Assembly (NCBI GenBank): GCA_964016885.1
Contig: OZ024743.1
Coordinates: 101,432,001 to 101,496,000, forward strand
Direction: 5' to 3'
DNA: 64,000 bases
Source of the DNA: Eledone cirrhosa
Taxonomy: Eukaryota
The notes beneath the pieces are model-generated. The model did no database searches and was not told the DNA's origin. It worked only from the letters and a program-made list of their open reading frames with translations. Positions 18,639 through 64,000 of this stretch are shown here, piece by piece. The stretch's first letter is position 1; the number at the start of each line of letters is the position of its first letter. The position numbers were made by a program, and so were the translations under genes.

Positions 18639-18675
<37 letters not shown>

Positions 18676-18951
18676 TTTCATTTATTAGCCACAAGGGCCG
18701 ACATGTAGGGGACAATACAAAGACAGGGACAGTGGGGGTTTACAATAAGGTCGAGTAAAAGTGCACAATCGCAAGACTAATTTAACAATGAAAATATAAA
18801 AATATAAAATAAACTATGCATAAATATAACAAAATAAATTCCCCGATAGGGGGTGGACGACCCTGGGGTGATTCGGGTACCCCACCAATCCTGAACCACC
18901 CTGCACTTCTAGGGCACCCAGGAGAACACCCCTCTCCTCAAGTTAGCCAGC

Positions 18952-22374: not shown

Positions 22375-22407
22375 ATTGGTAAGCTAAGAGAGAGAGAGAG
22401 GGAAGGT

Positions 22408-27335: not shown

Positions 27336-27917
27336 TGAACCACGCCAGTACACACGACAACACGGGACCAACCCACTGAGTGAAAGACCCAGGGGGATAA
27401 TAGGCAATAGAACCGGTCCCATTAGGCAGCCCCGCGGCCGCTTGGAGGGACATGCACCCCTGATTGAGGAGCATGACCCTACTAAAAAGTGTAATTGCAG
27501 AAGGAAGGACAAATGCCCACTAGCTGGACACTGCCTTATTAGGAACGTGGTATATGCTTGTAACGTAACCACAGGCACGTATACTAAGACGTATGTGGGA
27601 TCAACCGCTAACGAGTTCAAGACGAGGTTCAACGCCCACCAACATAGCTTCCGATATGAGAAGCTTAAAAATACCACGTCGTTAGCGGGGCATATACATA
27701 GCTTAAAACAAACAAAAACCCCTACACACTAAGCTGGAGATGCCTTACTAAAGCTCCTCCATATAGCTCGTTGAGCAGGTGTTGTAGCCTGTGCCTATCT
27801 GAATCTCATGCCATAGTATTCTCAGAACTCAACTTGCTCAACAGGAGATCAGAAATCTTCTCGTCCTGCCCCCATACCATACTTAGCTCTTTCTTTTTCT
27901 TCAGACTAGACACATAG
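27336..27917 (+). pseudogene. Penelope-like element GIY-YIG endonuclease (Naiad-type), 5'-truncated, one frameshift
   Basis: [50 protein letters not shown]; after the shift at ~27720: [35 protein letters not shown]. Confidence 0.85.
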
Positions 27918-32501: not shown

Positions 32502-33070
32502 ATATATATATATGTAGGAGGTGAGTTTTATTGTAGTACAATAAAGCAATGCCGATATCGGATAAGAAGCACTCTACAGTTTGTAGGACTGGAGTATACA
32601 TAATATATAAGAACAAAAGATGGTTAAAAGAGTTCCATGTATTTTATTATGCGCATTTCAAAAACAAATATCATCATGCAATAATATTTGTGTTTTCATC
32701 AGATAAAACAGGAAGACATGATATGAAGGTTAAAAAAACACTTGTGGATAGTGCAGTTTTAAATCAACATATGATAAGTAGTTTTAGATTGATGTGTGAT
32801 ATTGGGAAAAATATTTTATTTTGAGGGGGGGGGGAGGATGAAAAAGAGGAGGAGATGAGAGTAGAAAGTGGAGAGGGTGGAGTATAATTAGGAAGGATGA
32901 GATAGGAGGAGAGATGGGTGATAGAGAGAGAGAGATAGCTTTTATAACTGAGAAAGATATATTGTTTTACATAGAGAGGTTGAAAACCGTTGGAAGATAA
33001 TGTATAAATTAAAAGAATTTGAAAATTAACGAAGAGAAAAATAATGTAAAGTTAAGGTTTGTATATTGAG

Positions 33071-33240
33071 GGGTTTAATAATATGTGCGATGAAAAGAAA
33101 ATGTTAATATGTATTAAGAATAATATTTAAGGGCTTAATAACATGTGCGATGGAAAGAAAAAGTTAATATGTATTAAGAATGATATTTAAGGGTTTAATA
33201 ATATGTGCGATGGAAAGAAAATGTTGATATGTATTATTAA
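33071..33240. repeat. 60-bp tandem repeat x3
   Basis: GGGTTTAATAATATGTGCGATGGAAAGAAAATGTTAATATGTATTAAGAA at 33071, 33131 and 33191. Confidence 0.85.
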
Positions 33241-33322
33241 AAAGAACAACAGGTAATTTAAGTAAGGATATATTGTGAGATGAGCATGAATGAGTTAGAT
33301 GAAAGGGAGAAAGGAATAATGA

Positions 33323-35680
33323 ATTTATTTTAATTTATTTTATTTTATTTTATTTTATTTTATTTTATTTTTATTTTATTTTATTTTATTTTATTTTAAT
33401 TTATTTTCTTTTATTTTATTTTAGTTTATTTTTATTTATTTATTTATTTTATTTTATTTCATTTTATTTTATTTTCTTTTCTTTTATTTTATTTTATTTT
33501 GCTTTATTTTATTTTATTTTATTTTAATTTATTATATTTTAAATATTTATTTATTTAATTATTTATTTTATTTTATTTTATTTTATGTAATTATTTATTT
33601 TATTTTATTTTATTTTATTTATTTATTTATTTATTTATTTTATTTTATTTTATTTCATTTTATTTTATTTTATTTTATTTTATTTTATTTTATTTTATTT
33701 TGCTTTATTTTATTTTATTTTATTTTATTTTATGTAATTATTTATTTTATTTTATTTTATTTTATTTATTTATTTATTTATTTATTTTATTTTATTTTAT
33801 TTTAATTTATTATATTTTAATTATTTATTTATTTAATTATATATTTTATTTTATTTTATTTTATTTTATTTTATTTTATTTTATTTTATTTTATTTCATT
33901 TTATTTTATTTTATTTTATTTTATTTTATTTTATTTTATTTTGCTTTATTTTAATTTATTTTATTTTATTTTATTATATTTTAATTATTTATTTATTTAA
34001 TTATTTATTTTATTTTATTTTATTTTATGTAATTATTTATTTTATTTTATTTCATATTATTTTATTTATTTATTTATTTATTTATTTTATTTTATTTTAT
34101 TTCATTTTATTTTATTTCATTTTATTTTATTTATTTATTTATTTATTTATTTATTTTATTCTATTTCATTTCATTTCATTTTATTTCATTTCATTTCATT
34201 TCATTTTATTTTATTTTATTTTATTTTATTTTATTTTATTTTATTTTGCTTTATTTTATTTTATTTTATTTTATGTAATTATTTATTTTATTTTATTTCA
34301 TTTCATTTCATTTCATTTCATTTCATTTCATTTCATTTTATTTTATTTTATTTTATTTTATTTTATTTTAATTTATTTTATTTTATTTTATTTTATTTTA
34401 TTTTATTTTATTTTATTTTATTTTATTTTATTTTATTTTATTTTATTTTAATTTATTTTAATTTATTTTATTTTAGTTTATTTTTATTTATTTATTTATT
34501 TATTTATTTATTTTATTTTATTTTATTTCATTTTATTTTATTTTATTTTATTTTATTTTGCTTTATTTTATTTTATTTTATTTTAATTTATTATATTTTA
34601 AATATTTATTTAATTATTTATTTTATTTTATTTTATTTTATGTAATTATTTATTTTATTTTATTTTATTTTATTTATTTATTTATTTATATTATTTTATT
34701 TTATTTCATTTTATTTTATTTCATTTTATTTTATTTATTTATTTATTTATTTTATTTCATTTCATTTCATTTCATTTCATTTCATTTCATTTCATTTCAT
34801 TTCATTTCATTTTATTTTATTTTATTTTATTTTATGTTATTTTATTTTGCTTTATTTTATTTTATTTTATTTTATTTTATTTTCATTTCATTTCATTTCA
34901 TTTCATTTCATTTCATTTTATTTCATTTTATTTTATTTTATTTTATTATATTTTAATTTATTTTATTTTGTTTATTTTATTTTATTTTATTTTATGTAAT
35001 TATTTATTTTATTTTATTTTAATTTCATTTCATTTAATTTCATTTCATTTCATTTCATTTCATTTCATTTTATTTTATTTTATTTTATTTAATTTTATTT
35101 TATTTTATTTTATTTTTTTATTTTAAATTATTTTATTTTATTTTATTTTATGTAATTATTTATTTTATTTTATTTTATTTCATTTTATTTTATTTTATTT
35201 TATTTTATTTTATTTTATTTTATTTTATTTTATTTTATTTTATTTTATTTTATTTTATTTTATTTTAATTAATTTAATTAATTATTTAATTAATTAATTA
35301 AGTTAATTTTAATTTAATTAATTAATTAATTTTAATTTAATTTAATTAATTGAATTAATTCATTAATTAATTAAATTATATTTAAATTAATAAATTAATT
35401 AATTAAAATAAATTAAAATAAAATAAAATAAAATAACGCAAAATAAAATAAAATAAAATAAAATAAAATAAAATAAAATAAATAAATAAATAAATAAATA
35501 AAATAAAATGAAATAAAATAAATAAATAATTACATAAAATAAAATAAAATAAAATAAAATAAAGCAAAATAAAATAAAATAAAATAAAATAAAATAAAAT
35601 AAAATAAAATAAAATAAAATAATTATAATAAAAATAAATTTAATTAATTAATTAATTAATTTAATTTAATTTAATTTAAT
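33323..35680. repeat. (TTTTA)n/(TTTCA)n/(TTAA)n AT tract with a strand flip near 35270-35400
   Basis: TTTTA orientation switches to AAAAT; marker words (TTTATGTAATTATTT, TTTTGCTTTATTTT) reappear inverted. Confidence 0.9.
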
Positions 35681-38220
35681 ACCCGGAAATAACTGGAAAT
35701 ACCCGGAAACACCGGAAATAGCCCACTGCGCACTGCGCATGCAACAAGGTTGGACAGCACTGCGCATGAGGTAAGGTTGGACCGTAATGCGCATGCACGA
35801 CGGTTGGGCCGTACTGCGCATGAGCGAAGGTTGGACCGTAGTGCGCTTGCGCAAAAATTGGACCGCACTGCGCATGCGCCAAGTTTTGACAGCACCCCGC
35901 ATGCGCTAAGGTTGGACTGTAGTGCGCATGCGCGAATGTTGCACCGTAGTGCGCATGCGCGACGGTTGGACCGTAGTGCGCATGCGCGAATGTTGGATCC
36001 AACTGCGCATGCGTGAAGGTCGGACAGCACTGCGCATGCGCTAAGGTTGGACCATAGTGCGCATGCGCGAAGTTTGGACCGTAGTGCGCATGCGCGAAGG
36101 TTGGACCGTAGTGCGCATGCGCGACGGTTGGACCATAGTGTGCATGCGAGTCGGTTGGACCGCACTGCGCATGCGCAAAGTTTGGAGCGCACTGCGAATG
36201 CGCCAAGTTTGGACAGCATTTGCGAATATTGGATCCCACTGCGCATGCGTGAAGGTTGGACCATAGTGCGCATGCGCTAAGGTTGGACCATAGTGCGCAT
36301 GGGCGAATGTTGGACCGTAGTGCGCATGCGCGACGGTTGGACCATAGTGCGCATGCGCGAAGGTTGGACCATAGTACGCATGAGCGACGGTTGGACCGTA
36401 CTGCGCATGCGCGAAGTTTGGACCGTACTAAGCATGCGCAAAGGTTGGACCGCACTGCCAATGCGCCAGTTTGGACAGCATTGCGCATGCGCTATGGTTG
36501 GACCGTAGTGAGCATGCGCGAAGGTTGGACCGTAGTGCGCATGCGCCAAGGTTTGACAGCCCTGCGCATGCGCTAAGGTTGGACCGTAGTGCGCATGCGT
36601 GAAGGTCGCACCATACTGCGCATGCGCGAAGTTCGGACTGTACTGCGTATGCGGGAAGGTCGCTCTGCACAGCGCATGAAGGTTGGACAGTACTGCGCAT
36701 GCTTTAAGCTTGTACCATAGTGCGCATGCGCGAAGTTGGACCATAGTGCGCATGCGCTAAAGTTGCACCGTACTGCGCATGCGCGACGGTTGGACCGTAC
36801 TGCGTATGCCCCAAATTTGGACAGCACTCACGCACGTACGCACGCACACACACACGCACACACGCAATCACGCACGCACACACGCACGAATGCACACACG
36901 CACACAAGCACGCACGCAATCACGCACGCAATAACGCACGCACACACGCACACACGCAATCACGCACGCACACACGCAATCACGCACGCACGCACGCACG
37001 CAACTACGCATGCACGCACGCAATCACGCACGCACGCAATCACGCACGCACGCAATCACGCACGCACGCAATCACGCACGCACGCAATCACGCACGCACG
37101 CACGCAATAACGCACGCACGCACGCATTCACGCAAGCACGCATTCAAGCACGCACGCACTCACGCACGCAATCACGCAAACACGCAATCACGCACTCAGG
37201 CACGCACACACGCAATAATGCACGCACGCAATCACGCAATCACGCACGCAATAAGGCACGCCAGCAATCACGCACGCACGCAATCACGCACACACACACG
37301 CACGCATTCACGCACGCACGCAATCACGCACGCACGCAATAACGCACGCACGCACGTACGCAATCACGCACGTACGCATTCAAGCACGTACGCATTCAAG
37401 CACGCACGCACTCACGCACGCAATAACGCACGCAATAACGCATACACGCAATCACGCACTCAGGCACGCACACATGCAATCACGCACGCAAGCACGCATC
37501 TCACGCACGCAATCACGCACGCACGCAATCACGCACGCACGCATGCAACAACGCATGCACGCCCGCAATCACGCACGCACGCACACACGCAACCACGCAC
37601 GCAGCGTGATTACGTGCGTGATTGCGTGCGTGATTGCGAGCGTGCGTGATTGCGTGCGTGTGTGATTGCGTGCGTGCGTGATTGCGTGTGTGCGTGATTG
37701 CGTGCATGGGTGCGTGATTGCATGCGTGAGTGCATGATTGCATGCATACGTAATTGTGTGCGTTCGTGCGTGTTTGCGTGCATGCGTGCGTGCGTGATGC
37801 GTGCGTGCGTGATGCGTGCGTGCGTGATTGCGTGCATACCTGATTGCAGGCGTGCGTGATTGCGTGGGGACCGTACTGCGCATGCGCGAAGGTTGGACCG
37901 CACAGCGCATGCGCTAATGTTGGACCGTACTGCGCATGCACAGTGCTGTCCAAACTTGGCGCATGCGCAGTGCGGTCCAACCTTCGAGCATGCGCAGTAG
38001 GTCTAACTTCGCGCATGCGCACTGCGGTCCAACCTCGAAACCAGTTTCCTTTCGTTTGGTTTTTTAGGTTCCCCGGTTTCGTCTCGTTTCAGTTTTTTAG
38101 GTTCCCTGGTTTCATTTCGTTTGGATTTTAGGTTCCCCGGTCTCATTTCGTTTGGTTTCATAGGTTCCCCGGTTTCGTTTGGTTTGGTTTTTTAGGTACC
38201 CAGGTTTCGTTTCGTTTTTT
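35681..38220. repeat. subtelomeric module A
   Basis: CCGGAAAT 10-mers; ~40 x 27-mer AAGGTTGGACCGTAGTGCGCATGCGCG; CACG array 36828-37865 with a flip at ~37603; flipped 27-mers; T-rich ~28-mers. Confidence 0.9.
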
Positions 38221-38759
38221 AAATTAAATTAAATTAAGTTAAATTAAATTAAATTAAGTTGAATTAAATTAAATTAAATTAAATTAAATTAAATTAAATT
38301 AAAATGAATTAAAACAATTAATTAATTAATAAAATAAAATAAAATAAAATAAAATAAAATAAAATAAAATAAAATAAAATAAAATAAAATAAAATAAAAT
38401 AAAATAAAATAAAATTAATTTAAATTAATTTATTAATTAATTAATTATTTAATTTAATTTAATTTATTTTATTTTATTTTAATTTATTTTAATACATTTA
38501 ATTAATTAATTAATTAAAATTTAATTTAATTAATTAATCAATTAAATTAATTAATTAAATTAAATTTAAATTAATTAATTAAAATAAAATAAAATAAAAT
38601 AAATAAAATAAAATAATTAATTAATTAATTAATTAATTAAATAAAATAAAAATAAAATAATATAAAATAAAATAAAATAAATTAAAATAAAATAAAATAA
38701 AATAAAAATAAATTTAATTAATTAATTAATTAAATTAATTTAATTTAATTTAATTTAAT

Positions 38760-41700
38760 ACCCAGAAATAACCGCAAATATCCGAAAATACCTGGAAACA
38801 CTCGGAAATACCCACTGCGCACTGCGCTTGCGCTATGGTTGGAGCGAGGTGCGCATGCGCGAAGGGTGGACCGTAGTGCGCATGCGCGACGGGGGACCGT
38901 ACTGCACATGGGTAATGGTGGATCCCACTGCGCATGCGCGAAGGTTGGAGAGTACTTTGCATTCACTATAGTTGGACCATAGTGCGCATTCGCGAAGGTT
39001 GGACCGTAGTGCGCATGCGCTAAGGTTGGACCGTAGGGCTCATGCGCGACGGTTGGACCCTAGAGCGCATGCGTGAAGGTTGGATCCCACTGTGCATGCG
39101 TGACGGTTGGACAGCACTGCCCGTGCGCTAAGGTTGGACCATAGTGCGTATGCGCGAAGGTTGGACCGCACTGCGCATGCGCCATCTTTGGACAGCATTG
39201 CGCATGCGCTAAGGTTGGACCGTAGTGAGCATGCGCGACTGTTGGACCATACTGCGCATGCGCGAAGGTCGGACCACACAGCGCATGCGCGAAGGTTGGA
39301 GAGTACTTTGCATTCACTATAGTTGGACCATAGTGCGCATTCGCGAAGGTTGGACCGTAGGGCTCATGCGCGACGGTTGGACCGTAGAGCGCATGCGTGA
39401 AGGTTGGATCCCACTGTGCATGCGTGAAGGTTGGACAGCACTCACGCACGCATACAATCACGCACGCACGCAATCACGCACTCAATCACGCACGCAATGA
39501 CGCACGCGTCACGCACGCACGGAGACACGAACGCACGTACGCACGCACGCATCCACGCACGCACGCAATATCGCACGCCTGCATGCACGCAATCACGCCC
39601 GCACGCACACAATCACGCACGTACGCAATCACGCACGCACGCAATCACACGCAATCACGTACGCACGGAATTACGCACGCACACAATCACGCACGCCAGC
39701 AATCACGCACGCAAGCACGCAATAACGCACGCACACACACACGCAATCACGCACGCACGCATTCACGCACGCAGGGAATCACGCATGCACGCAATCACGC
39801 ACGCACGCAATCACGCACGCACGCAATCACGCACGCACGCAATCACACACGCACGCAATCACGCACGCACGCAATCACGCACGCACGCAATCACGCACGC
39901 ACGCAATCAGGCACGCACGCAATCATGCACGCACGCACACAATCACGCACGCACGCAACCACGCACGCACGCAATGACGCAGGCACGCAGGAAATCACAC
40001 ACGCACGCACGCAATCACGCAGGCACGCAATCACGCAAGCACGCAATCACGCACGCACGTAATCACGCATGCAAGCAATCACACACGCACACAATCACGC
40101 ACGCACGCAATCACGCACGCACGCACGCAATCACGCACGCACGCAATAAGCACGCACGCAATCACGCACGCAATCACGCACGCAATCACGCACGCACGCA
40201 ATCACGCACGCACGCAATCACGCACGCACGCAATCACGCGCGCACGCAATCAGGCACGCACGCAATCATGCACGCACGCACACAATCACGCACGCACGCA
40301 ACCACGCACGCACGCAATGACGCAGGCACGCAGGAAATCACACACGCACGCACGCAATCACGCAGGCACGCAATCACGCAAGCACGCAATCACGCACGCA
40401 CGTAATCACGCATGCAAGCAATCACACACGCACACAATCACGCACGCACGCAATCACGCACGCACGCACGCAATCACGCACGCACGCACGCAATCACGCA
40501 CGCACGCAATAAGCACGCACGCAATCACGCACGCAATCACGCACGCAATCACGCACGCACGCAATCACGCACGCACGCAATCACGCACGCACGCAATCCC
40601 GCACGCACGCAATCAGGCACGCACGCAATCATGCACGCACGCACACAAGCACGCACGCACGCAATCACGCACGCACGCAATCACTCACGCACGCAATCAC
40701 GCATGCAAGCAATCACACACGCACACAATCACGCACGCACGCAATCACGCACGCACGCACGCAATCACGCACGCACGCAATAAGCACGCACGCAATCACG
40801 CACGCACGCAATCACGCACGCAATCACGCACGCACGCAATCACGCACGCACGCAATCACGCACGCACGCAATCACGCACGCACGCAATCACGCATGCAAG
40901 CAATCACGCACGCACGCAATCACGCACGCACGCAATCACGCACGCACGCAATAAGGCACGCACGCAATCACGCACGCTCGCACGCAATCACGCACGCACG
41001 CACGCAATCACGCACGCACGCAATAAGCACGCACGCAATCACGCACGCACGCAATCACGCACGCAATCACGCACGCACGCAATCACGCACGCACGCAATC
41101 ACGCACGCACGCAATCACGCATGCAAGCAATCACGCACGCACGCAATCACGCACGCTCGCACGCAATCACGCACGCTCGCACGCAATCACGCATGCACGC
41201 ACGCACGAAAACACGCACGCACGCAATCACGAACGCAATAAGGCACGCACGCAATCATGCACGCACGCACTCAATCACGCACAAACGCAATCACGCAGGC
41301 ACGCACGAAATCACGCACGCACGCACGCAATCACGCAGGCACGCAATCACGCACGCACGCAATCACGCACGCACGCACGCACGCAATCACGCATGCAAGC
41401 AATCACACACGCACACAATCACGCACGCACGCAATCACGCACGCACGCACGCAATCACGCACGCACGCAATAAGCACGCACGCAATCACGCACGCACGCA
41501 ATCACGCACGCACGCAATCACTCACGCACGCAATCACGCATGCAAGCAATCACACACGCACACAATCACGCACGCACGCAATCACGCACGCACGCACGCA
41601 ATCACGCACGCACGCAATAAGCACGCACGCAATCACGCACGCAATCACGCACGCACGCAATCACGCACGCACGCAATCACGCACGCAATCACGCACGCAC

Positions 41701-44438
41701 GCAATCACGCATGCAAGCAATCACGCACGCACGCAATCACGCACGCACGCAATCACGCACGCACGCAATAAGGCACGCACGCAATCACGCACGCTCGCAC
41801 GCAATCACGCACGCACGCACGCAATCACGCACGCACGCAATAAGCACGCACGCAATCACGCACGCACGCAATCACGCACGCACGCAATCACGCACGCACG
41901 CAATCACGCACGCACGCAATCACGCACGCACGCAATCACGCATGCAAGCAATCACGCACGCACGCAATCACGCACGCTCGCACGCAATCACGCACGCTCG
42001 CACGCAATCACGCATGCACGCACGCACGAAAACACGCACGCACGCAATCACGAACGCAATAAGGCACGCACGCAATCATGCACGCACGCACTCAATCACG
42101 CACAAACGCAATCACGCAGGCACGCACGAAATCACGCACGCACGCACGCAATCACGCAGGCACGCAATCACGCACGCACGCAATCACGCACGCACGCACG
42201 CACGCAATCACGCATGCAAGCAATCACACACGCACACAATCACGCACGCACGCAATCACGCACGCACGCACGCAATCACGCACGCACGCAATAAGCACGC
42301 ACGCAATCACGCACGCACGCAATCACGCACGCACGCAATCACGCACGCACGCAATCACGCATGCAAGCAATCACGCACGCACGCAATCACGCACGCACGC
42401 AATCACGCCCGCACGCAATAAGGCATGCACGCAATCACGCACGCTCGCACGCAATCACGCACACACGCACGCAATCACGCACGCACGCAATAAGCACGCA
42501 CGCAATCACGCACGCACGCAATCACGCAATCACGCACGCACGCAATCACGCACGCACGCAATCACGCACGCACGCAATCACGCACGCACGCAATCACGCA
42601 TGCAAGCAATCACGCACGCACGCAATCACGCACGCACGCAATCACGCACGCACGCAATAAGGCACGCACGCAATCACGCACGCTCGCACGCAATCACGCA
42701 CGCACGCACGCAATCACGCAAAAACGCAATTACGCACGCACGCAATCACGCACGGACGCAAGCTCGCAATCAAGAAACCAACGCAATCACCCACGCATGC
42801 ACGCAATCACTCAGGCACGCAATCACGCACGCACGCAATCACGCACGCACGCAATCACGCACGCACGCAATCACGCACGGACGCAATCACGCACGGACGC
42901 AAGCTCGCAATCAAGAAACCAACGCAATCACCCACGCATGCACGCAATCACGCAATCACTCAGGCACGCAATCACTTACGCACGCACGCACGCACGCAAT
43001 CACGCACGCAATCACGCACCCACGCAATCACGCAATCACGCACGAAATCACGCACGCAATCACGCACGCACACACGCAATCACGCACGCAATCACGCACG
43101 CATGAAATCACACACGCACGCAGCGTGCGTGTGTGATTGCGTCCATGCGTGATTGCGTGCGTGATTGCGTGCGTGCGTGCGTGATTGCGTGCGTGCGTGA
43201 TTGCGTGAATGCGTGCGTGCGTGAGTCCGTGCGTGATTACATGATTGCGTGCGTGCGTGATTGCGTGCGGGCCGCCGTGCTTGCGTGATTGCGTGCGTGC
43301 GTCAATGCGTGCGTGCGTGATTGCGTGCGTGTGTGCGTGCGTGATTGCGTGCGTGCGCGATTGCGAGCGTGCGTGTGTGTGTGCGTGCGTGTGTGCGTGC
43401 GTGCTTGCGCGCGTGCATGATTGCTTTCGTTCGTGCGTGATTGCGTGCGTGCGTACGTGATTGCGTGCGTATGTGCTTGCGTGCGTGATTGCACGCAATC
43501 ACGCACGCTCGCAATCACGCACTCAATCACGCACGTACGCAATAAGGCACGCACGCAATCACGCACGCAATCACGCACGGACGCACACAATCACGCACGC
43601 ACGTACACAATCACGCACGCACGCAATCACGCAATCATGCACGAAATCACGCACGCACGCACGCAATCATGCAATCACGCACGCACGCACGCAATCACGC
43701 ACGCACGCACGCAATCACGCACGCACGCAATGACGCACGCACGCAATCACACACGCGTGCGTGATTGCGTTTGAGCGTGCGTGCGTGATTGCGTGCGTGC
43801 GTGATTGCGTGCGTACGTGATTGCGTGCGTGATTGCATGATTGCGTGGGTGCGTGATTGCGTGCGTGATTGCGTGCGTACGTGATTGCATGATTGCGTGG
43901 GTGCGTGATTGCGTGCGTGATTGCGTGCGTACGTGATTGCGTGTGTGCGTGTGTGCGTGATTGCGTGCGTGAGTTATTGCGTGATTGCGTGCATGAATGC
44001 GTGATTGCGTTGGTTTCTTGATTGCGAGCGTGCGTGCGTGATTGCGTGCGTGCGTGCGCGATTGCGTGCGTGCGTGATTGCGTGCGTGCGTGCGTGTGTG
44101 CGTGTGTGCGTGATTGCGCGCGTGCATGATTGCGTTCGTTCGTGCGTGATTGCGTGCGTGTGTACGTGATTGCGTGCGTGATTGCGTGTGTGCGTGCGTG
44201 ATTGCGTGCGTACGTGAATGCGGCCGTTGGTGATTGTGTGCGTGTGTGTGTTCGTGCGTGATTGCGTGTGTTCGTGCGTGATTGCGTGCGTGCGTGATTG
44301 CTTGCAGATGGTACTGCGCATGCGCGAAGGTCCGACCGCACAGCGCATGCGCGAAGGTTGGACAGCCCTGCGCAATGCGCTAAGGTTGGACCGTACGGCG
44401 CATGCGCAGTGCTGTTCCCCGGTTTCGTTTCGTTTTTT
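38760..44438. repeat. subtelomeric module B
   Basis: Same order; CACGCAAT array 39440-44305 with flips at ~43120, ~43490 and ~43755. Confidence 0.9.
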
Positions 44439-44819
44439 AAATTAAATTAAATTAAATTAAATTAAATTAAATTAAATTAATTAATGAAATAATAGAAAAT
44501 AAAATAAAATAAAATAAAATAAAATAAAATAAAATAAAATGAAATAAAATAAAATTAATTTAATTAATTAATGAATTAATTATTTAATTTATTTTATTTT
44601 ATTTTATATTATTTTAATTTATTTTAATTAATTTAATTAATTAATTAATTAATAAAAATTTAATTAAATTAATTAATCAATTAAATTAATTAATTAAATT
44701 AAATTAAAATTAATTAATATTAATTAAAACAAAATAAAATAAAATAAAAATAAAATTAATTAATTAATTAATTAATTAATTTAATTAATTTAATTTAATT
44801 TAATTTAATTTAATTTAAT

Positions 44820-47800
44820 ACCCAGAAATAACCGCAAACACCCGGGAACACCCGGAAATAGCCCACTGCGCACTGCGCATGCGCTAAGGTTGGACCGTAG
44901 TGCACATGCGCGAAGGTTGGACCGTAGTGCGCATGCGCGACGGTTGGACCGTACTGCGCATGCGCGAATGTTGGATCCCACTGCACATGCGTAAAGGTTG
45001 GACAGCACTGATCATACGCTAAGGTTGGACCATAGTGCACATGCACGAAGGTTGGACCGTAGTGCGCTGCGCGAGGGTTGGTCCGTAGTGCGCATGCGCG
45101 AGGTTTGGACCGTACAGCGCATGCGCGAAGGTCGGAGCGTACAGCCCATGCGCCAAAGTTTGAACGTAGTGCGCATGCGCGAATGTTGATCCCACTGCGC
45201 ATGCGTGAAGGTTGGACAGCACTGCGCATGCGCGAAGGTTGGACCGTACTGCGGATGAGGAAGGTCGGACCGTAGTGCGCATGCGCGACGGTTGGATCAT
45301 AGTGCGTAAACGCGAAGGCTGGACCGTAGTGCGCATGCGCGTTGGTTGGATCCTACTGCGCATACGCGAAGGTTGGACCGCACTGCGCATGCGCCAAGGT
45401 TGGACACCACTGCGCATCCGCTAAGGTTGGACCGTAGTGCGCATGCGCGAAGGACGGACCGTACTGCGCATGCGCGAAAGTTGGATAGTACTACCCATGC
45501 GCGCAGGTTGGACAGTAGTGCGCATGCGCTAAAGTTGCACCGTACTGCGCATGCGCGAATGTTGGATCCCACAGCGCATGCGTGAAGATTGGACAGCACT
45601 GCGCATGCGTTAAGGTTGGACCATAGTGCGCATACGCGAGGTTGGACCGTAGTGCGCATGCGCGGAGGTTGGACCGTAGCGGCGCATGCACGAGGGTTGG
45701 ACCATACAGCGCATGCGCGAAGGTCGGACCGAACAGCCCATGCACCAACGTTTGACCGTAGTGCGCATGCGCGAACGTTGATCCCACTGCGCATGCGTGA
45801 AGGTTGGACAGCACTGCGCATGCGCTAAGGTTGGACCATAGTGCGCATGCGCTAAGATTGGACCATAATGCGCATGCGCGAAGTTTGGACCGTAGTGCGC
45901 ATGCGCGAAAGTTGGACCGTAGTGCGCATGAGCGACGGTTGGACCGTACTGTGTATACGCGAAGGTTGGAACGGACTGCGCATGCGCGAATGTTGGATCC
46001 CACTGCGCATGCGTGAAGGTTGGACAGCACTGCGAATGCGCTAAGGGTGGACCATAGTGCGCATGTGCGAAGGTTGCACCGTAGTGCGCATGCGCGAATG
46101 TTGAACCGTAGTGAACATGTGCGACGGTTGGACAGTACTGCGCATTCGCGAAGGTTTGATCGTACTGAGCATGCGCGAAGGTTGGACCGCACTGCGCATG
46201 CGCCAAGTTTGGACAGCATTGCGCATGTGCTAAGGTTGAACCGTAGTGAGCATGCGTGACGGTTGGACCATACTGCGCATGCGCGAAGGTTGGACCGCAT
46301 GGCGCATGCGCCAAGGCTGGACAGCACTGCGCATGTGCTAAGGTTGTACCGTAGTTCGCATGCGCGAAGGTCGGACTGCACAGCGAAGGTTGGACAGTAC
46401 TGCCCATGCACTAAGGTTGGACCATATTGCGCATTCGCGAAGGTTGGACTGTAGTGCGCATGCGCTAAGGTTGTACCATAATGCGCATGCGTGAATGTTG
46501 GATCCCACTGCGCATGCGTGAAGGTTGGACAGCACTGCCTATGCGCTAAGTTTGGATCAGAGTGCGCATGCGCGAAGGTTGGACAGTAGTACGCATGCGC
46601 AAAGGTTGGACCGTAGTACGCATGCGCGACGGTTTGACCGTACTGCGCATGCGCCAAATTTGGACAGCACCAACACACGCACACACGCACGCAATCACGC
46701 AACAATCACGCACGCAATCACGCACGCAATCACGCACGCACGCAATCACGCACGCACGCAATCACGCACGTACGCAATCATGCACGCACGCACGCAATCA
46801 CGCACGCAATCATGCACGCACTCACGCACACACGCACACAATCACGCACGCACGCAATCACGCACGCAATGAAGCACGCATGCACGCAATCACGCACGCA
46901 CGCAATCACGCACGCACGCAATCACGCACGCACGCAATCACGCACGCACGCAATCATGTACGCACGCGATCACGCACGCACGCAATCACCCACCCACGCA
47001 CGCAATAACGCACGCATGCAATCATGCATGCACGCACGCAATCACGTACCCACGCACGCAATCACGCACGCACGCAATCACGCAAGCACGCAATCACACA
47101 CGCACGCAATCACACACTCACTCACGCAATCAAGCACGCACGCAATCACGCACACACTCACGCACTCACGCACGCACGCAATCACGCACGCACGCAATCA
47201 TGCACGCACGCACGCACGCATCCACGCACGCACGCAATGTCGCACGCACGCAATGTCGCACGCACGCAATCAGGCACGCACGCACACACACACGCAATCA
47301 CACACGCACGCACGCAATCACACACGCACGCAATCATGCACGCACGCACGCAATCACGCGCGCACGCAATCATGCATGCACGCAATCACGCACACACGCA
47401 CACAATCACGCACGCACGCAATCACGCACGCAATCAAGCACACATGCACGCAATCACGCACGCAATCACGCACGCACGCAATAACGTACGCACACACGCA
47501 CGCACGCAATCAGGCACGCAATCACGCACGCAATCACGCACACACGCACACACGCACGCACGCAAGCACGCAATCACGCACCCACACAATCATGCACGCA
47601 CGCACGCACGCAATCATGCACGCACGCAATCACGCACACACGCACACAATCACGCCCGCACCCAATCACGCACGCAATAAAGCACGCAAGCACGCAATCA
47701 CGCACGCAATCACGCACGCAACCACGCACGCACGCAATCACGCACGCACGCAATCACCTACCCACGCACGCAATAACGCACGCACGCAATCATGCATGCA

Positions 47801-49638
47801 CGCACGCAATCACGTACCCACGCACGCAATCACGCACGCACGCAATCACACACTCACTCACGCAATCAAGCACGCACGCAATCACGCACACACTCACGCA
47901 CTCACGCACGCACGCAATCACGCACGCACGCACGCGCTCATTCACGCACGCACGCAATGTCGCACGCACGCACGCAATCAGGCACGCACGCACACACACA
48001 CGCAATCACACACGCACGCACGCAATCACACACGCACGCAATCATGCACGCACGCACGCAATCACGCGCGCACGCAATCATGCATGCACGCAATCACGCA
48101 CACACGCACACAATCACGCACGCACGCAATCACGCACGCAATCAAGCACGCATGCACGCAATCACGCACGCAATCACGCACGCACGCAATAACGCACGCA
48201 CACACGCACGCACGCAATCACGCACGCAATCACGCACGCAATCACGTACACACGCACACACGCACGCACGCAAGCACGCAATCACGCACCCACACAATCA
48301 TGCACGCACGCACGCAATCATGCACGCACGCAATCACGCACACACGCACACAATCACGCCCGCACCCAATCACGCACGCAATAAAGCACGCAAGCACGCA
48401 ATCACGCACGCAATCACGCACGCAACTACGCACGCACGCAATCACGCACGCAACTACGCACGCACGCAATCACGCACGCACGCAATCACCCACCCACGCA
48501 CGCAATAACGCACGCACGCAATTATGCATGCACGCACGCAATCACGTACCCACGCACGCAATCACGCACGCATGCAATCACGCAAGCACGCAATCACGCA
48601 CGCACGCAATAACACACTCACTCAAGCAATCAAGCACGTACGCAATCACGCACACACTCCGCACGCAATCACGCACACACGCACGCAATCATGCACGCAC
48701 GCAGGCGCTCATTCACGCACGCCCGCATCCACGCACGCACGAAATGTCGCACGCACACACACACGCAATCAAACACGCATTCACGCACGCACGCATTCAC
48801 GCACGCACGCATTAACGCACGCACGCAATTACGCACATCTGCAATCACACACGCACGCACGCAATCACGCATGCACTGACGCAATCACGCACGCACGCAA
48901 TAAGGCACGCACGCACGCAATCACGCACGCACACACGCACGCAATCACGCAGGCACGCATTCAGGCAATCACGCACGCAATCACACACACAATCACACAC
49001 GCACGCGCACGCACGCACGAAATCACGCACGCACGCAGCGTGCGTGTGTGATTGCGTGCGTGATTGCGTGCGTGCGTGATTGCGCGCATACGTGCGTGAT
49101 TGCGTGTGTGCGTGCCTGCGTTCGTGATTGCGTGCGTGATTGGCTGCGTGCGTGAATGCGTGCCTGCGTGATTGCGTGCGTGTGTGCGTGATTCCATGCG
49201 TGTGTTAATGCGTGCGTGAGTGATTGTGTGCGTGATTGCGTGCGTGCGTGCGTGCGTGATTGCGTGCGTGAGTGCGTACGTGCGTGCGTGATTGCGTGTG
49301 TGCGTGCGTGATTGTGTGCGTGATTGCGTGCGTGCGTTATTGCGAGCGTGCGTGCGTGTGTGTGTGTGCGTGCGAGTGTGCGTGCGTGATTGCGTGCGTG
49401 ATTGCGTGCCTGCGTGATTGCGTGCCTGCGTGATTGCGTGCGTTCGTGCGTGATTGCGTGCGTGCGTTCGTGCGTGTGTGCGTGATTGCGTGCGGACCGC
49501 ACTGCGCATGAGCCAAGTTTGGACAGCACTGTCCATGTGCAGTACGGTTCAACCTTAGGGCATGCGCACTACGGTCCAACCTCGAAACCAATTTTGTTTC
49601 CTTAGGTTTTATAGGTACCCTGGTTCGTTTCGTTTTTT
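44820..49638. repeat. subtelomeric module C
   Basis: 27-mer array 44866-46670; CACG array 46671-49492 with a flip at ~49037; short T-rich end. Confidence 0.9.
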
Positions 49639-50267
49639 AAATTAAATTAAATTAAATTAAATTAAATTAAATTAAATTAAATTAAATTAAATTAAATTAA
49701 ATTAATTAAAAAATTAATTAATTAATTAATTAATAAATTAATTAAATAAAATAAAATAAAATAAAATAATTAAAATAGAATAAAATAAAATTAAATAAAA
49801 TAAATTAAATTAAATTAAAATAATTAATTAATTAATTAATTAATTATTTAATATAATTTAATTTATTTTATTTTATTTTACTTTAATTTATCTTAATTGA
49901 TTTAATTAATTAATTAATTAATTTAAATTTAATTTAATTAATTAATCAATTAAATTAATTAATTAAAATAAAATAAAATATAATAAAATAAAATAAAATA
50001 AATAAAATAAAATAATTAATTAATTAATTAATTAATTAATTTAATATAATAAAATAAAAATAAAATAAAATAAAATAAAATAAAATAAAATAAAATAAAA
50101 TAAAATAAAATAAAATAAAATAAAATAAAATAAAATAAAATAAAATAAAATAATTAATTAATTAATTAATTAATTAATTAATTAATTAATTAATTAATTA
50201 ATTAATTAATTAATTAATTAATTTATTTATTTATTGAATTTAATTTAATTTAATTTAATTTAATTTA

Positions 50268-50777
50268 ACACCCGGAAATAACCGGAAATGGCCGAAAATA
50301 CCCGGAAATATCCGGAAATACCCGGAAACACCCGGAAATAGCCCGCTGCGCATTCCTCATGCGCCAAAGTTGGACAGCACTGCGCCTTCGCTAAGGTTGG
50401 ACCGTAGTGCGCATGCGCGAATGTCGGACTGCACAGCGCATGCGCGAAGGTTCGCTCATAATGCGCATGCGAGAAGGTTGGCCCGTAGTGCGCATGCGCA
50501 GTGCTGTCCAAACTTGGCGAATGCGCAGTGCGGTCCTACTTTCGCGCATACGCGGTACGGTCCAACCTTCGCGCATGCGCACTACGGTCCAACCTCGAAA
50601 CCAGTTTTGTTTCATTTGGATTTAGGGTTCTCAGTTTCGTCTCGTTTCGGATTTTTAGGTTTCCGGTTTCGTTTCGTTAGGTTTTATAGGTTCCCCGATT
50701 TCGTTTAATATGTTTTTTTAGGTTCCCCGGTTTCGTTTCGTGAGGGTTTTAGGTACCCCGGCTTCGTTTCGTTTTTT
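50268..50777. repeat. subtelomeric module D (no CACG expansion)
   Basis: About 7 CCGGAAA units; 27-mers flip at TGCGCATGCGCA (~50489-50500); T-rich 28-mers. Confidence 0.9.
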
Positions 50778-51194
50778 AAATTAAATTAAATTAAATTAAA
50801 TTAAATTAAATTAAATTAAATTAAATTAAATTAAATTAAATTTAAATGAATTAAATTAATTAATTAATTAATTAATTAATTAATAAAATAAAATAAAATA
50901 ACATAAAATAAAATAAAATAAATAAAATAAAAGAGTTAATAATTAATTAATTAATTAATTAATTAATTAATTAATTAATTAATTAATAAAATAAAATAAA
51001 ATAAAATAAAATAAATTAAATTAAATTAAATTAAATTAAATTAAATTAAATTAAATTAAAATGAATTAAAATAATTAATTAATTAATTAATTACATAATT
51101 AATTAATTAATTAATTAAATTAATTAAAATAAAATATAATAAAATAAAATAAAATAAATAAAATAAAATAATTAATTAATTAATTAATAAAATA

Positions 51195-51467
51195 GGTTGA
51201 ACAGCGCTGCGCATGCGCAGTGCTGTTCAACCTTGGTGCATGCGCAGTGCCGTGCAACCTTCGCGCATGAACAGTACGGTCCAACCTTCGCGCATGCGCA
51301 GTACGGTTCAACCTCGAAACCAGTTTCGTTCCTTTGGTTTTTTAGGTTCCCCGGTTTCCTCACGTTTCGGTTTTTTAGGTTCCCCGGTTTGGTTTGGTTT
51401 GGTTTTTTAGGTTCCCAGGTTTCGTTTCGTTTGATTTTTTAGGTACCCCGGTTTCGTTTCGTTTTTT
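51195..51467. repeat. subtelomeric module E (5'-truncated)
   Basis: Lacks the CCGGAAAT part; flip at ~51208-51219; T-rich 28-mers. Confidence 0.85.
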
Positions 51468-51613
51468 AAATTAGATTAAATTAAATTAAATTAAATTAAA
51501 ATAAATTAAATTAAATTAAATTAAATTAAATTAAATTAAATTAAAATGAATTAAATAATTAATTAATTAATTAATTAATAAAATAAAATAAAATAAAATA
51601 AAATAAAATAAAA

Positions 51614-51668
<55 letters not shown>

Positions 51669-51937
51669 GTAAATAAATAAATTAAATAATTAATTAATTA
51701 ATTAATTATTTAATTTATTTCATTTTATTTTATATTAATTTATTTTAATTAATTTAATTAATTAGTTACTTAATTTAAATTTAATTTAATTAAATAATTA
51801 ATTAAATTAATTAAAATAAAATAAAATATAATAAAATAAAATAAAATAAAATAAATTTAATTAATTAATTAATTTAATTAATTTAATTTATTTTAATTTA
51901 ATTTAATTTAATTTAATTTATTTTATTTTATTTTAAT

Positions 51938-52391
51938 ACACGGAAATAACCAGAAATACCCGGAAATACCCGGAAACACCCGGAAATAGCCCACTGAGCA
52001 CTGCGCATGCGCCAAGGTTGGACAGCACAGCGCAAGTGCTAAGGTTGAACCGTAGAGCGCATCCGCGAAGGTCGGCCCGTACTGCGCATACGCGAAGTTC
52101 GGAACGCACAGCGCATTCGCGAAGTTTGTACAGCAATGCGCATGCGCTAAGTTTGGACCATAGTGCGCATGCGCTAAGGTTGGACCGTACTGCGCATGCG
52201 AAGTGCTGTCCAACCTTCGCGCATGCGCACTACGGTCCAACCTCGAAACCAGTTTCGTTTCATTTGGTTTTTTAGGTTCCTCGGTTTCGTTTCGGTTGGT
52301 TTTTTAGGTTCCCCGGTTTCGTTTGGTTTTTTAGGTTCCCCGGTTTCGTTTCGTTAGGTTTTTTAGGTACCCCGGTTTCGTTTCGGTTTTT
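51938..52391. repeat. subtelomeric module F
   Basis: Same order as module D. Confidence 0.9.
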
Positions 52392-52745
52392 AAATTAAAT
52401 TAAATTAAATTAAATTAAATTGAATTAAATTAAATTAAAATGAATTAAAATAATTAATTAATTCATAAAAAAATAAATAAAATAAATAAATTAAATTAAT
52501 TAATTAAATAATTAAGTAATTAATTAATTAATAAATTAAATTATTTATTAATTAAATTAATTAAAATAAAATAAAATACAATAAAATAAAATAAAATAAA
52601 ATAAAATAAAATAAAATAAAATAAAATAAAATAAAATAAAATAAAATAAATTAAAATAGAATAAAATAAAATAAATTTAATTAATTAATTAATTAATTAA
52701 TTTAATTAATTTAATTTAATTTAATTTAATTTAATATAATTTAAT

Positions 52746-53159
52746 ACCGGGAAATATCCTTAAATACCCGGAAACAACTGGAAAAGCCCACTGCGCATGC
52801 GCCAAGGTTGGACAGCACAGCGCATGTGCTAAGGTTGGACCATAGTGCGCATGCGCGAAGGTTGAACCGTAGCGCGCATGGGCTAAGGTTAGACCGTACT
52901 GCGCATGCGCAGTGCAGTCCAACTTTCGCGCATGCGCAGTACGGTCCAACCTTCGCGCATGCGCAGTACGGTCCAACTTTCGCGCAGGCGAACTACGGTC
53001 CAACTCCAAACCAGTTTCGTTTGGTTTCGTTTTTTAGGTTCCCTGGTTTCGTCTCGTTTCGGTTTTTTAAGTTCCCCGTTTTCGTTTCGTTTGTTTTTTT
53101 AGGTTCCCCGTTTTCGGTTCAATTGGTTTTTTAGGTACCCTGGTTTCGTTTCGTTTTTT
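52746..53159. repeat. subtelomeric module G
   Basis: Same order as module D. Confidence 0.9.
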
Positions 53160-53977
53160 AAATTAAATTAAATTAAATTAAATTAAATTAAATTAAATTA
53201 AATTAAAATGAATTAAAATAATTAATTAATTAATTAATTAGTAAAATAAAATAAAATAAATAAAATAAAATAAAATAAAATAAAATAAAATAAATAAATA
53301 AATAAATTAATTAAATAATTAATTAATTAATTATTTTATTTATTTTATTTTATTTTATATTAATTTATTTTAATTAATTTATTTAATTAGTTAATTAATT
53401 TAAATTTAATTAATTTAATTAATGGATTAAATTAATTAATTAAATTAAATTTAAATTAATTAATTAATTAATTAAATTAATTAAAATAAAATAAAATATA
53501 ATAAAATAAAATAAAATAAATAAAATAAAATAATTAATTAATTAATTAATTAAAAAAATAAAATAAAATTAATAAAATAAAATGAAATAAAATAAAATAA
53601 ATTAAATTAAATTAAATTAAATTAAATTAAATTGATTTAAATTAATTAATTAATTATTTAATTTAATTTATTTTATTTAATTTTATTATATTTTATTTTA
53701 TTTTAATTAATTAAATTAATTAATTAATTAATTAAAATTTAATTTAATTAATTTATCAATTAAATTACTTAATTAAATTAAAATTAAATTAATTAATTAA
53801 TTAATTAAATTTATTAAAATAAAATAAAATAAAATAAAATAAAATAAAATAAATAAGATAAAATAAAATAAAATAAAATAAAATAAAATAAAATAAAATA
53901 AAATAAAATAAAATAAAATAAAATGAAATGAAATAAAATGAAATTAATTTAATTAATTTAATTTAATTTAATTTAAT

Positions 53978-54274
53978 TCCCGGAAACACCCGGAAACAGC
54001 CCACTGAGCACTGCGCATGCGCCCAGGTTGGACAGCACTGTGCATGCGCTAAGGTTGGACCACAGTGCGCATGCGCGAATGTTGGACCGTAGTGCGCATG
54101 AGCTAAGGTTGGACCGTACTGCGCATGCGCAGTGCTGTCCAAACTTGGCTCATGCGCAGTGCGGTCCAACCTTCGCGCATGCGCATTACGGTCCAACCTT
54201 CGCGCATGCGCAGTACGGTCCAACCTTCGCGCATGCGATCTACGGTCCAACCTCGAAACCAGTTTCATTTCGAT
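53978..54274. repeat. subtelomeric module H, fused to the telomeric array
   Basis: Ends AACCTCGAAACCAGTTTCATTTCGAT|GGGTTAGGG. Confidence 0.9.
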
Positions 54275-63200: not shown

Positions 63201-64000
63201 GTTAGTGTTAGGGTTAGGATTAGGGTTAGGGTTAGGGTTAGGTTTAGGGTTAGCGTTAGGGTTAGGGCTAGAGATAGGGTTAAGGTTAGGGTTAGGGTTA
63301 GTGTTAGGTTTAGTGTTAGGGTTATGATTAGGGTTAGGGTTGGCTGTATGGGTTAGGGTTAGGGTTTGGGTTATCTGTTAGGGTTAGGGTTAGTTTAAGG
63401 TTTAGGGTTAGAGTTAGGGTTAGGGTTAGGGTTAGGGTAAGGTTAGGGTTAATGTTAGGGTTAGGGTTAGGTTTAGGGTTAGGGTTAGGTTTAGGGTCTG
63501 CTGATAAAGTTAGGGTTAGGGTTAGGGTTAGGGTTAGGGTTAGGGTTAGGTTTAGCTGTTAGGGTAAGGGTTAGTTTGAGGGTTAGGGTTAGCTGTTAGT
63601 GATAGGGTTAGAATTAGTGTTAGGGTTAGGGTCAGGGTTAGGGTTACGGTAAGGTCTAGGGTTAGGGTAAGGCTTAGCTGCTTGGGTTAGGTGTAGGGTT
63701 AGGGTTAAGGTGAGGGTTAGGGTTAGTGTCAGGGCTAGGGTTGGGGTTGGGGTTAGTGTTAGGGTTAGGGTTAGAGTTAGGGTTAGTGTTAGGGTTAGCT
63801 GTTAGGGTCAGCTGTTATGGTTAGGGTTAGGGTTAGGGTTAGAGTTGGGGTTAGGGTTAGGGTTAGCTGATATCTGTTAGGGTTAGGGTTAGGGGTAGTG
63901 TTAGGGTTAGGGTTAGGGTTAGCTGTTAGGGTTAGGGTTAGGTTAGGCTTAGGTTTAGGGTTAGGGTTAGGGTTACGGTTAATGTTAGGGTTAGGGTTAG
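54275..64000 (+). repeat. degenerate telomeric array (TTAGGG)n
   Basis: TTAGGG dominant, G-rich strand running toward the window end; variants TTAGCTG, TTAGTG, TTAGGA, TTAAGG, TTTAGG, CTAGGG. Confidence 0.97.

What the first reader, a model, noticed from the sequence alone, without database searches (positions are those of the whole stretch)
35681..54274. Subtelomeric satellite built from NRF-1 and ETS motifs abutting the telomere: candidate TERRA-promoter system
Seen: nearly every 27-bp unit carries TGCGCATGCGC(G/A), and each intact module opens with 3-7 CCGGAAAT/C 10-mers right after an almost pure AT tract. The CpG-rich block ends ~40 bp from the first TTAGGG. Established: YGCGCAYGCGCR is the NRF-1 (Ewg/P3A2 family) consensus; CCGGAA is the ETS/GABP core; NRF1 binds the CpG-rich subtelomeric repeats that act as human TERRA promoters. 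Inference: this could be a convergently evolved, tandemly amplified, methylation-sensitive promoter or boundary for telomeric transcription in an invertebrate.
Basis: partly seen in the sequence, partly recalled or inferred. Interest (0 to 1): 0.82.

Follow-up and report, generated by a model that had tools for sequence, protein, structure and literature searches.

The report
Fold-back satellite capped by telomeric repeats
In what is likely an octopus genome, eight head-to-tail copies of a hairpin-shaped repeat module run into a long, half-degenerate TTAGGG array; the "NRF-1 site" is the palindrome at which the module folds back and is not significantly better conserved than its neighbours, so this is most likely a chromosome-end satellite, and a role as promoter of telomere RNA remains an untested possibility.

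Summary
35,681-54,274 holds eight head-to-tail modules: AT tract, 10-mers, 27-mers, an optional CACG/CGTG hairpin, inverted 27-mers, 32-mers.

- The exact NRF-1 12-mer is in 45 of 165 complete units (107 within one mismatch).
- It is not significantly more conserved than the rest of the unit (p=0.11-0.35).
- It is the palindrome at which the 27-mers invert in 7 of 8 modules.
- CCGGAAGT never occurs.
- Module H is cut inside its first 32-mer by the TTAGGG array.
- That array is only about 50% pure over 9.7 kb, with kilobase duplications, so a true chromosome end is not shown.
- Public runs show many diverged copies, also in two other samples.

Best reading: a composite fold-back satellite amplified by slippage and unequal exchange, then broken and capped with telomere-type repeats. 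A TERRA-promoter role is not excluded (about 12%): the consensus unit carries the optimal NRF1 core and CpG decay is weak. No RNA, binding, methylation or genome-wide map could be tested.

The parts
33322..35680 (.). Expanded left AT tract: (TTTTA)n/(TTTCA)n, switching through (TTAA)n to (TAAAA)n, then (TTTAA)n.
35681..38218 (+). Module A (2,538 bp): 10-mers; about 40 forward 27-mers; CACG array 36,824-37,603 and CGTG arm 37,604-37,866; 3 forward then about 3 inverted 27-mers; 32-mers
38759..44436 (+). Module B (5,678 bp): degenerate 10-mers; about 23 forward 27-mers; CACG/CGTG block 39,438-44,296 with three orientation switches; 4 forward 27-mers; inverted 27-mers and most 32-mers missing
44819..49636 (+). 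Module C (4,818 bp): 10-mers; about 67 forward 27-mers; CACG 46,676-49,037 and CGTG 49,038-49,494; short forward and inverted 27-mers; shortened 32-mer block
50268..50775 (+). Module D (508 bp): 7.5 10-mers, 5 forward and 4 inverted 27-mers, 32-mers; no CACG block
51190..51465 (+). Module E (276 bp): left part missing (no 10-mers); 1 forward and 4 inverted 27-mers, 32-mers
51936..52389 (+). Module F (454 bp): complete short module, used for read mapping
52745..53157 (+). Module G (413 bp): complete short module
53977..54274 (+). Module H (298 bp): 2 10-mers, then a 27-mer inverted repeat centred at 54,126 predicted to form one long hairpin (-125 kcal/mol, z=-17), cut inside the first 32-mer
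38219..38758 (.). AT spacer A-B, typical of the seven spacers (others 44,437-44,818; 49,637-50,267; 50,776-51,189; 51,466-51,935; 52,390-52,744; 53,158-53,976). All seven begin with (TTAAA)n; five end in (TTTAA)n, its reverse complement (D-E ends in TTAA, E-F in TTTAA then TTTTA).
54270..54283 (+). Junction of module H with the TTAGGG-type array, in register with the TTTGGTT of the first 32-mer in other modules; GGTT is shared with the telomeric repeat. The exact break point is uncertain within about 8 bases.
54275..64000 (+). Degenerate TTAGGG-type array: 708 of 1,387 parsed units canonical; variants TTAGTG, TTAGCTG, TTAGGT, TTAGGA evenly spread; duplications at offsets 936, 1,392, 2,328, 749 (98.7-99.9% identical); runs off the window

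Best explanation
This is a composite fold-back satellite of eight head-to-tail modules that likely arose from one ancestral module, grew and shrank by slippage and unequal exchange, and was likely broken at its distal end and capped with telomere-type repeats, with the NRF-1-like palindrome serving as the fold-back point rather than, most likely, as a selected promoter element. Steps: (1) shown: fixed order of parts and shared junctions in all modules; (2) shown: orientation switches sit on short palindromes or hairpins; (3) inferred: the 27-mer inversion happened once, by template switching at TGCGCA|TGCGCA, before the module was multiplied; (4) shown: sub-arrays vary from 1 to about 67 27-mers and 0 to 4.9 kb of CACG, with internal duplications; (5) inferred: module H was broken just beyond its long hairpin and joined to TTAGGG repeats at a GGTT overlap, by telomerase healing or by recombination with a telomere-type array; (6) inferred: the TTAGGG-type array seen here has since been reshaped by recombination.
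For: Shared junctions: left junctions of 7 modules average 85% identity (76-91), right junctions of 7 modules 86% (79-95) (alignments). Switch points: the 27-mer array turns on the GCGCA|TGCGC palindrome (intact or with one change) in A, B, D, E, F, G, H and on TGGACAG[CA]CTGTCCA in C; the CACG arrays turn on CACGC[A]GCGTG (A, B, C); the 32-mers begin at a GAAAC[CA]GTTTC-type hairpin. The first inverted unit starts with the same GTGCTGT in A, B, D, E, F, H, as expected from one inherited inversion. No significant motif constraint: major-base frequency 0.89 in the 12-mer against 0.85 in the other 15 columns, p=0.35; divergence 7.6% against 9.6% for GGTTGGAC, p=0.07, reversing to 5.9% against 4.1% when variants seen 10 or more times are excluded; base-class-matched permutation p=0.11; intact cores 46.9% observed against 44.9% expected from independent mutation. 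A/T columns are generally better kept than G/C columns both inside and outside the motif. CACG blocks carry internal duplications of 343-1,706 bp. H matches the other modules up to the first 32-mer and then turns into TTAGGG; 1-5 base overlaps with GGTTAG mark healed human deletions (PMC3136441, passages). The family is multi-copy and real: 535 and 446 contigs of runs X1 and X2, and 2,871 and 2,197 reads of X4 and X5 (two other samples), lay on module F, most under 95% alike.
Against: Homogenised satellites would also hide selection on the array as a whole. High-depth loose ends show another 27-mer subfamily that differs at two positions outside the motif and none inside (too few changes to test). 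The 10-bp core is an unlikely product of the unit's composition. The GGTT overlap is weak evidence: 24 of 137 positions in the 32-mer block and 27 of 451 in module F offer a 4-base overlap, and the exact break point is ambiguous. The position of the other copies is unknown, so 'telomere-associated' rests on this one locus; a few loose ends run into unrelated AT-rich sequence.
Confidence: 0.58

Rival explanations
1. The module is a non-autonomous transposon (foldback/Mutator-like or Helentron-derived) with copies dispersed through the genome; this locus is a tandem cluster that happens to have been cut by telomere-type repeats.
For: Modular build of tandem sub-repeats in inverted orientation with AT-rich outer inverted repeats, as in foldback elements (PMC4079207, passages). 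A tandem core plus a tetranucleotide microsatellite is the typical cargo of mollusc HINE elements, and whole elements can be repeated in tandem (PMC7492417, passages). Many diverged and rearranged copies exist.
Against: The 10-mer and 32-mer blocks are not inverted counterparts: longest match with one mismatch 8-10 bases against 8.9-9.5 in shuffles, in 4 of 4 modules tested. No target-site duplication or defined terminus can be read; no transposase or Rep/Helicase frame was recognised among the ORFs of 1-34,000 (read by eye). No module part occurs in 1-33,300, which is uninformative at this copy number.
Confidence: 0.24
2. One reading: a tandemly amplified, NRF1- and ETS-bound, CpG-island-like promoter or boundary for telomeric RNA, convergent with the human 61-29-37 repeats.
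For: The consensus unit holds the preferred NRF1 core (PMC10810270); 84 exact cores in the block, 5 in module H, the last 76 bases before the first TTAGGG. Single changes lower human NRF1 affinity only 2-7-fold, and the human 29-bp sites themselves have two mismatches, so imperfect units could still bind. CpG transitions 4.5% per site against 3.0% at other G/C columns, p=0.13: little germline methylation. The 10-mers are all on one strand (16 against 1) and follow AT tracts.
Against: No significant excess conservation and no enrichment of intact cores towards the TTAGGG array; most cores lie 4.6-18.5 kb away (64 of 84 in A-C). No CCGGAAGT; module B has no exact CCGGAAAY. Other textbook motifs (names recalled) match more often: TNGCGTG 379 times, TGCRCNC 107 times. 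Octopus promoters and transposons are scarcely methylated (satellites somewhat more), and the authors doubt that methylation regulates expression dynamically (PMC9476566, passages), which weakens the 'methylation-sensitive' part. H is a truncated module, not a specialised terminal one.
Confidence: 0.12
3. The TTAGGG-type array is interstitial or a relic of an old end, so the block is not subtelomeric today (compatible with either origin above).
For: About 50% purity without gradient over 9.7 kb, longest pure run 8 units; kilobase near-exact duplications.
Against: The G-rich strand points to the window's right end, as at a real end; TTAGGG is the motif reported for an octopus (PMC13218726, passage); a long variant zone may precede a pure tract beyond 64,000.
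Confidence: 0.25
4. The modular block is an assembly artefact (chimeric or fold-back reads).
For: Inverted repeats and 99%-identical duplications can be produced by sequencing or assembly errors (general knowledge).
Against: Modules differ by about 15% at their junctions, inverted arms differ by about 22% in D, and the parts and strand switches appear in Logan contigs and in Illumina reads of two other samples.
Confidence: 0.03

Closest known systems
Human subtelomeric 61-29-37 CpG-island repeats (TERRA promoters; PMC6600276, passages)
   Same: CpG-rich tandem repeats of similar unit length (27 against 29 bp) carrying NRF1-type sites, directly proximal to TTAGGG-type repeats.
   Different: Here the units are arranged as fold-backs inside repeated modules separated by AT tracts; the largest component is a CACG microsatellite; the last module is truncated; promoter activity, binding and methylation control are shown in human and untested here. 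Sequence homology was not tested.
Foldback elements that seed satellites (Tetris of Drosophila virilis; PMC4079207, passages)
   Same: Modular inverted repeats built of tandem sub-repeats, non-coding, rearranged copies, variable sub-array length.
   Different: No middle domain, no matching left and right inner domains (10-mer against 32-mer), no readable 8-10 bp target-site duplication; copies are head-to-tail.
HINE / DINE-1 / Cg_HINE non-autonomous Helentrons (PMC4067079 and PMC7492417, passages)
   Same: Central tandem array plus 4-nt microsatellite, T-rich surroundings, tandem copies, likely molluscan host.
   Different: No 11-15 bp subterminal inverted repeat pair found; the microsatellite lies inside the tandem array and is itself a fold-back; the array is inverted on itself.
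Healed terminal deletions (PMC3136441, passages) and telomere variant-repeat zones or interstitial telomeric sequences (recalled; PMC6410037 seen as search listing only)
   Same: A repeat cut part-way and joined to TTAGGG repeats with a short overlap.
   Different: The added array is degenerate from its first units and over at least 9.7 kb, so the event is old or the array came in by recombination.

Membership tests
61-29-37-type TERRA promoter | CpG-rich tandem repeats directly proximal to TTAGGG repeats | tested here: met
   CpG o/e 1.95; last CpG 54,271, first TTAGGG 54,278
61-29-37-type TERRA promoter | NRF1-type site in the repeat unit | tested here: met
   In the consensus; exact 12-mer in 45 of 165 units, within one mismatch in 107 of 165
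   No significant excess, p=0.35, 0.07, 0.11; reversed for rare variants; units are not independent
61-29-37-type TERRA promoter | Located at true chromosome ends and shared by many ends | not testable with these tools
   No genome held; adjacent array about 50% pure
61-29-37-type TERRA promoter | Transcription start towards the telomere; NRF1 binding; repression by methylation | not testable with these tools
   No RNA, ChIP or methylation data reachable; CpG decay weak
Foldback (Mutator-like) transposon | Long modular terminal inverted repeats with tandem sub-repeats | tested here: inconclusive
   27-mers and outer TTTAA/TTAAA tracts are inverted; 10-mer and 32-mer blocks are not
Foldback (Mutator-like) transposon | 8-10 bp target-site duplication and defined termini | tested here: inconclusive
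   Modules abut shared AT spacers and the right end is lost; no unique flanks to compare
Foldback (Mutator-like) transposon | Dispersed copies and an autonomous partner | not testable with these tools
   No genome held; multi-copy shown, positions not
HINE / non-autonomous Helentron | 11-15 bp subterminal inverted repeats at the two ends | tested here: not met
   Longest inverted match between 10-mer and 32-mer blocks 8-10 bases, at shuffle level, in A, D, F, G; assumes the ends lie at the AT tracts
HINE / non-autonomous Helentron | Microsatellite plus central tandem repeats | tested here: met
   In A, B, C only, and in a different order from Cg_HINE
HINE / non-autonomous Helentron | Short palindrome within about 35 bp of the 3' end; insertion into TT | tested here: inconclusive
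   A 6-bp GGTACC lies about 20 bp before the AT tract; the larger hairpin is at the start of the 32-mer block; no empty sites available
Canonical telomerase-made telomere | Homogeneous TTAGGG tract | tested here: not met
   43-58% per 500-bp bin, longest pure run 8 units, within the window
Canonical telomerase-made telomere | G-rich strand running 5'-3' towards the end | tested here: met
   TTAGGG on + strand to 64,000, if the end lies to the right
Canonical telomerase-made telomere | Terminal position on the chromosome | not testable with these tools
   Array runs off the window; no genome held

The most novel reading that the evidence does not exclude
Octopods have independently evolved a CpG-island-like, largely unmethylated subtelomeric satellite whose amplified NRF1 palindromes, framed by nucleosome-poor AT tracts, open chromatin and fire telomeric RNA at many chromosome ends, converging on the human 29-bp NRF1 repeat; the same palindrome doubles as the fold-back point that rebuilds and breaks the array.
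Probability: 0.12. Interest if true: 0.75.

Novelty: new variant of a known kind. Interest (0 to 1): 0.3.

Why it matters
As a satellite, it is an apparently undescribed six-part fold-back repeat in a group whose chromosome ends are hardly studied (one telomere motif reported for cephalopods, PMC13218726 passage). It shows in one locus how palindromes, slippage and telomere capping can build and cut a chromosome-end array, and it gives a FISH and long-read marker. If the promoter reading held, it would be an invertebrate case of NRF1-driven telomere transcription from repeats, which my searches did not find in print, and it would suggest that such promoters can arise repeatedly from satellites. 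The evidence in hand does not support that step.

Tried and rejected
- Own genome: none held, so no map of other copies.
- Earlier scan notes: nothing relevant.
- Sequencing runs for 44,820-46,670: no RNA holder listed, which says nothing on expression. The three holders are one sample and may be the source of the assembly.
- Read depth as copy number: summed depth about 1,250-1,400 at the left junction against 5-7 on the contigs closest to the window sequence suggests of the order of 100-250 copies, but the tool states that this depth is no copy number; used only as 'many'.
- RAD reads as a methylation test: reads start at the CATG of the motif (for example 52,141, 52,168, 52,222, 52,198, 52,009) and end at AATT (52,396). 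That reflects the library's cutting sites; enzymes with such sites are, as I recall, not blocked by CpG methylation, so no inference.
- Loose ends into TTAGGG: none among the 24 shown of 385, but human-like reads are filtered out; uninformative.
- Metagenome scans with two 27-mer patterns: 0 matches.
- Rfam, 33,000-56,000: 0 matches at gathering scores.
- Bacterial promoter scan on module H: not applicable to this host, 0 sites.
- CpG decay in the CACG arrays: TG in 35 against CG in 661 at the CpG slot, TA in 17 against CA in 594 at the control slot; a mild excess, confounded by duplication and slippage.
- 10-mer and 32-mer as matching transposon ends: rejected.
- An octopus NRF1 sequence could not be fetched; that the protein exists in molluscs and binds the same site rests on recall.
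Full report
Host and setting. No genome is held for this window. The left 33 kb is (TA)n-rich and full of LINE fragments. The only named close relative of the longest LINE frame (19,816-22,281, minus) is a protein of the octopod Argonauta hians, 60% identical over 62% of the query; an unnamed protein is closer at 76%. An octopod host is therefore likely but inferred. TTAGGG is the telomere motif reported for an octopus (PMC13218726, passage).

Anatomy. The block is a head-to-tail array of eight modules, A-H, of 2,538, 5,678, 4,818, 508, 276, 454, 413 and 298 bp, separated by AT spacers of 355-819 bp and preceded by a 2,359-bp AT tract from 33,322. A full module reads: (TTTAA)n; 10-mers of consensus ACCCGGAAAT; forward 27-mers; in A, B, C only, a CACG array and its reverse complement; a few more forward 27-mers; inverted 27-mers; a short GAAAC-CA-GTTTC hairpin; 32-mers; (TTAAA)n. 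By length, CACG/CGTG arrays are 47%, 27-mers 27%, AT 19%, 32-mers 5% and 10-mers 2%. Junction regions are 85-86% identical on average between modules, so the modules descend from one composite unit.

The observation. The NRF1-type palindrome is in the consensus 27-mer and is rare in shuffles of it (9 of 200,000; 11 of 30,000). But it is exact in 45 of 165 complete units, within one mismatch in 107. Exact CCGGAAA(T/C) counts per module are 3, 0, 1, 6, none, 3, 1, 2, and CCGGAAGT is absent. The distance to the first TTAGGG is about as stated.

Is the motif constrained? Mean major-base frequency is 0.89 in the 12-mer and 0.85 elsewhere (p=0.35). Divergence is 7.6% in GCGCATGCGC and 9.6% in GGTTGGAC (p=0.07), and 5.9% against 4.1% once variants seen ten or more times are excluded. 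A permutation matched for G/C against A/T columns gives p=0.11, and intact cores occur in 46.9% of units against 44.9% expected from independent changes. Intact cores are as frequent in D-H (14 of 29) as in A-C (61 of 131). There is a slight trend in the predicted direction and the units are not independent, so constraint is not shown and not excluded. As a control for motif matching, TNGCGTG (xenobiotic response core, name recalled) occurs 379 times and TGCRCNC (metal response core, recalled) 107 times in the same block.

A structural role for the palindrome. The orientation switches I examined sit on short self-complementary sequences (the call listed 20 points). The 27-mer array turns on the GCGCA|TGCGC centre, intact or with one change, in seven modules and on a 7-bp hairpin in C. 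The CACG arrays turn on CACGC[A]GCGTG. The first inverted unit starts with the same bases in six modules, which points to a single ancestral template switch (inferred). Module H is predicted to fold as one long DNA hairpin (-125 kcal/mol, z=-17).

Methylation. Transitions at the CpG columns of the motif are 4.5% per site against 3.0% at other G/C columns (p=0.13), so germline methylation looks low. That fits the promoter idea but is also expected: in O. bimaculoides fewer than 10% of CpGs are methylated, promoters and transposons scarcely, satellites somewhat more (PMC9476566, passages).

The junction and the 'telomere'. H follows the other modules into the first 32-mer and then becomes TTAGGG, at about the place where the others read TTTGGTT. 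Short overlaps with GGTTAG mark healed human deletions (14 of 19 breakpoints, PMC3136441, passages), but 24 of 137 positions in the 32-mer block would offer such an overlap, so this is suggestive only. The truncation itself is clear: the repeat block was cut by, not built for, this junction (inferred). The array is about half canonical throughout its 9.7 kb, the longest pure run is 8 units, and 4,324 of 9,726 bases are in duplications 98.7-100% identical. It may be a very long variant zone before a pure tract, or an interstitial array.

Other copies. I laid four of the six listed runs on module F only: 535 and 446 contigs (X1, X2) and 2,871 and 2,197 RAD reads from two other samples (X4, X5), mostly under 95% alike, with strand-switch joints and a second 27-mer subfamily. 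The family is real, polymorphic and multi-copy; where the copies lie is unknown.

Comparison with known systems. It resembles the human 61-29-37 TERRA promoters in position, CpG content and motif (PMC6600276, passages; NRF1 site preference in PMC10810270, passages; PMC5087959 seen as a search listing only), but none of their functional features could be tested. It resembles foldback elements (PMC4079207, passages) and mollusc HINEs (PMC7492417, PMC4067079, passages) in its parts, but no matching subterminal repeats were found and no target-site duplication can be read. I file it in none of these. No supplements were read; repeat libraries in supplements of cephalopod genome papers might already list the family. 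Searches showed no description of it in titles or abstract openings.

Verdict. Most likely (0.58) a composite fold-back satellite, cut and capped by telomere-type repeats; a dispersed non-autonomous transposon family (0.24) and a selected TERRA promoter (0.12) are the rivals. Independently, there is about a 0.25 chance that the TTAGGG array is not terminal. The architecture is unusual and worth a genome-wide look; the promoter claim has no support beyond the motif match. Interest 0.3.

Noticed in passing
window 54,275-64,000: A 7-mer variant TTAGCTG (64 of 1,387 parsed units) and TTAGTG (93) are evenly spread along the array, also outside the large duplications. This could reflect old amplification or an error-prone telomerase.
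   Followed up: partly
window 58,488-63,668: Near-exact duplications in the TTAGGG-type array at offsets 936, 1,392, 2,328, 749, 876, 948 and 1,416 (98.7-100% identical): recent unequal exchange, or assembly over-expansion.
   Followed up: partly
window 19,816-23,764 (minus) and 13,052-14,517 (minus): Two related non-LTR retrotransposon copies with endonuclease and reverse transcriptase frames; the first has an upstream proline-rich ORF1-like frame. Nearest named relative is from Argonauta hians.
   Followed up: partly
window 15,423-18,677 (minus): An RTE-like LINE (label recalled) with endonuclease and reverse transcriptase in two frames, a CTA/TAA microsatellite at one end.
   Followed up: no
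window 27,340-27,730 (plus): A short frame resembling the GIY-YIG endonuclease region of Penelope-like elements (resemblance recalled, not searched).
   Followed up: no
window 33,063-33,236: A 60-bp unit repeated 2.9 times just before the left AT tract; the boundary of the block at 33,322 is abrupt.
   Followed up: no
window 37-404 and 578-849: Unrelated tandem repeats of 34 bp (10.7 copies) and 53 bp (5.1 copies) at the window start.
   Followed up: no
window 52,141-52,396: RAD reads pile up at the CATG inside the 27-mer palindrome; GCATGC occurs 155 times in the block, so this family would be heavily over-sampled and paralogous in such libraries.
   Followed up: partly
loose ends at window 52,164-52,200: A second, high-depth 27-mer subfamily with GGCTGGTCC in place of GGTTGGACC and the palindrome unchanged, suggesting locus-specific homogenisation elsewhere in the genome.
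   Followed up: no
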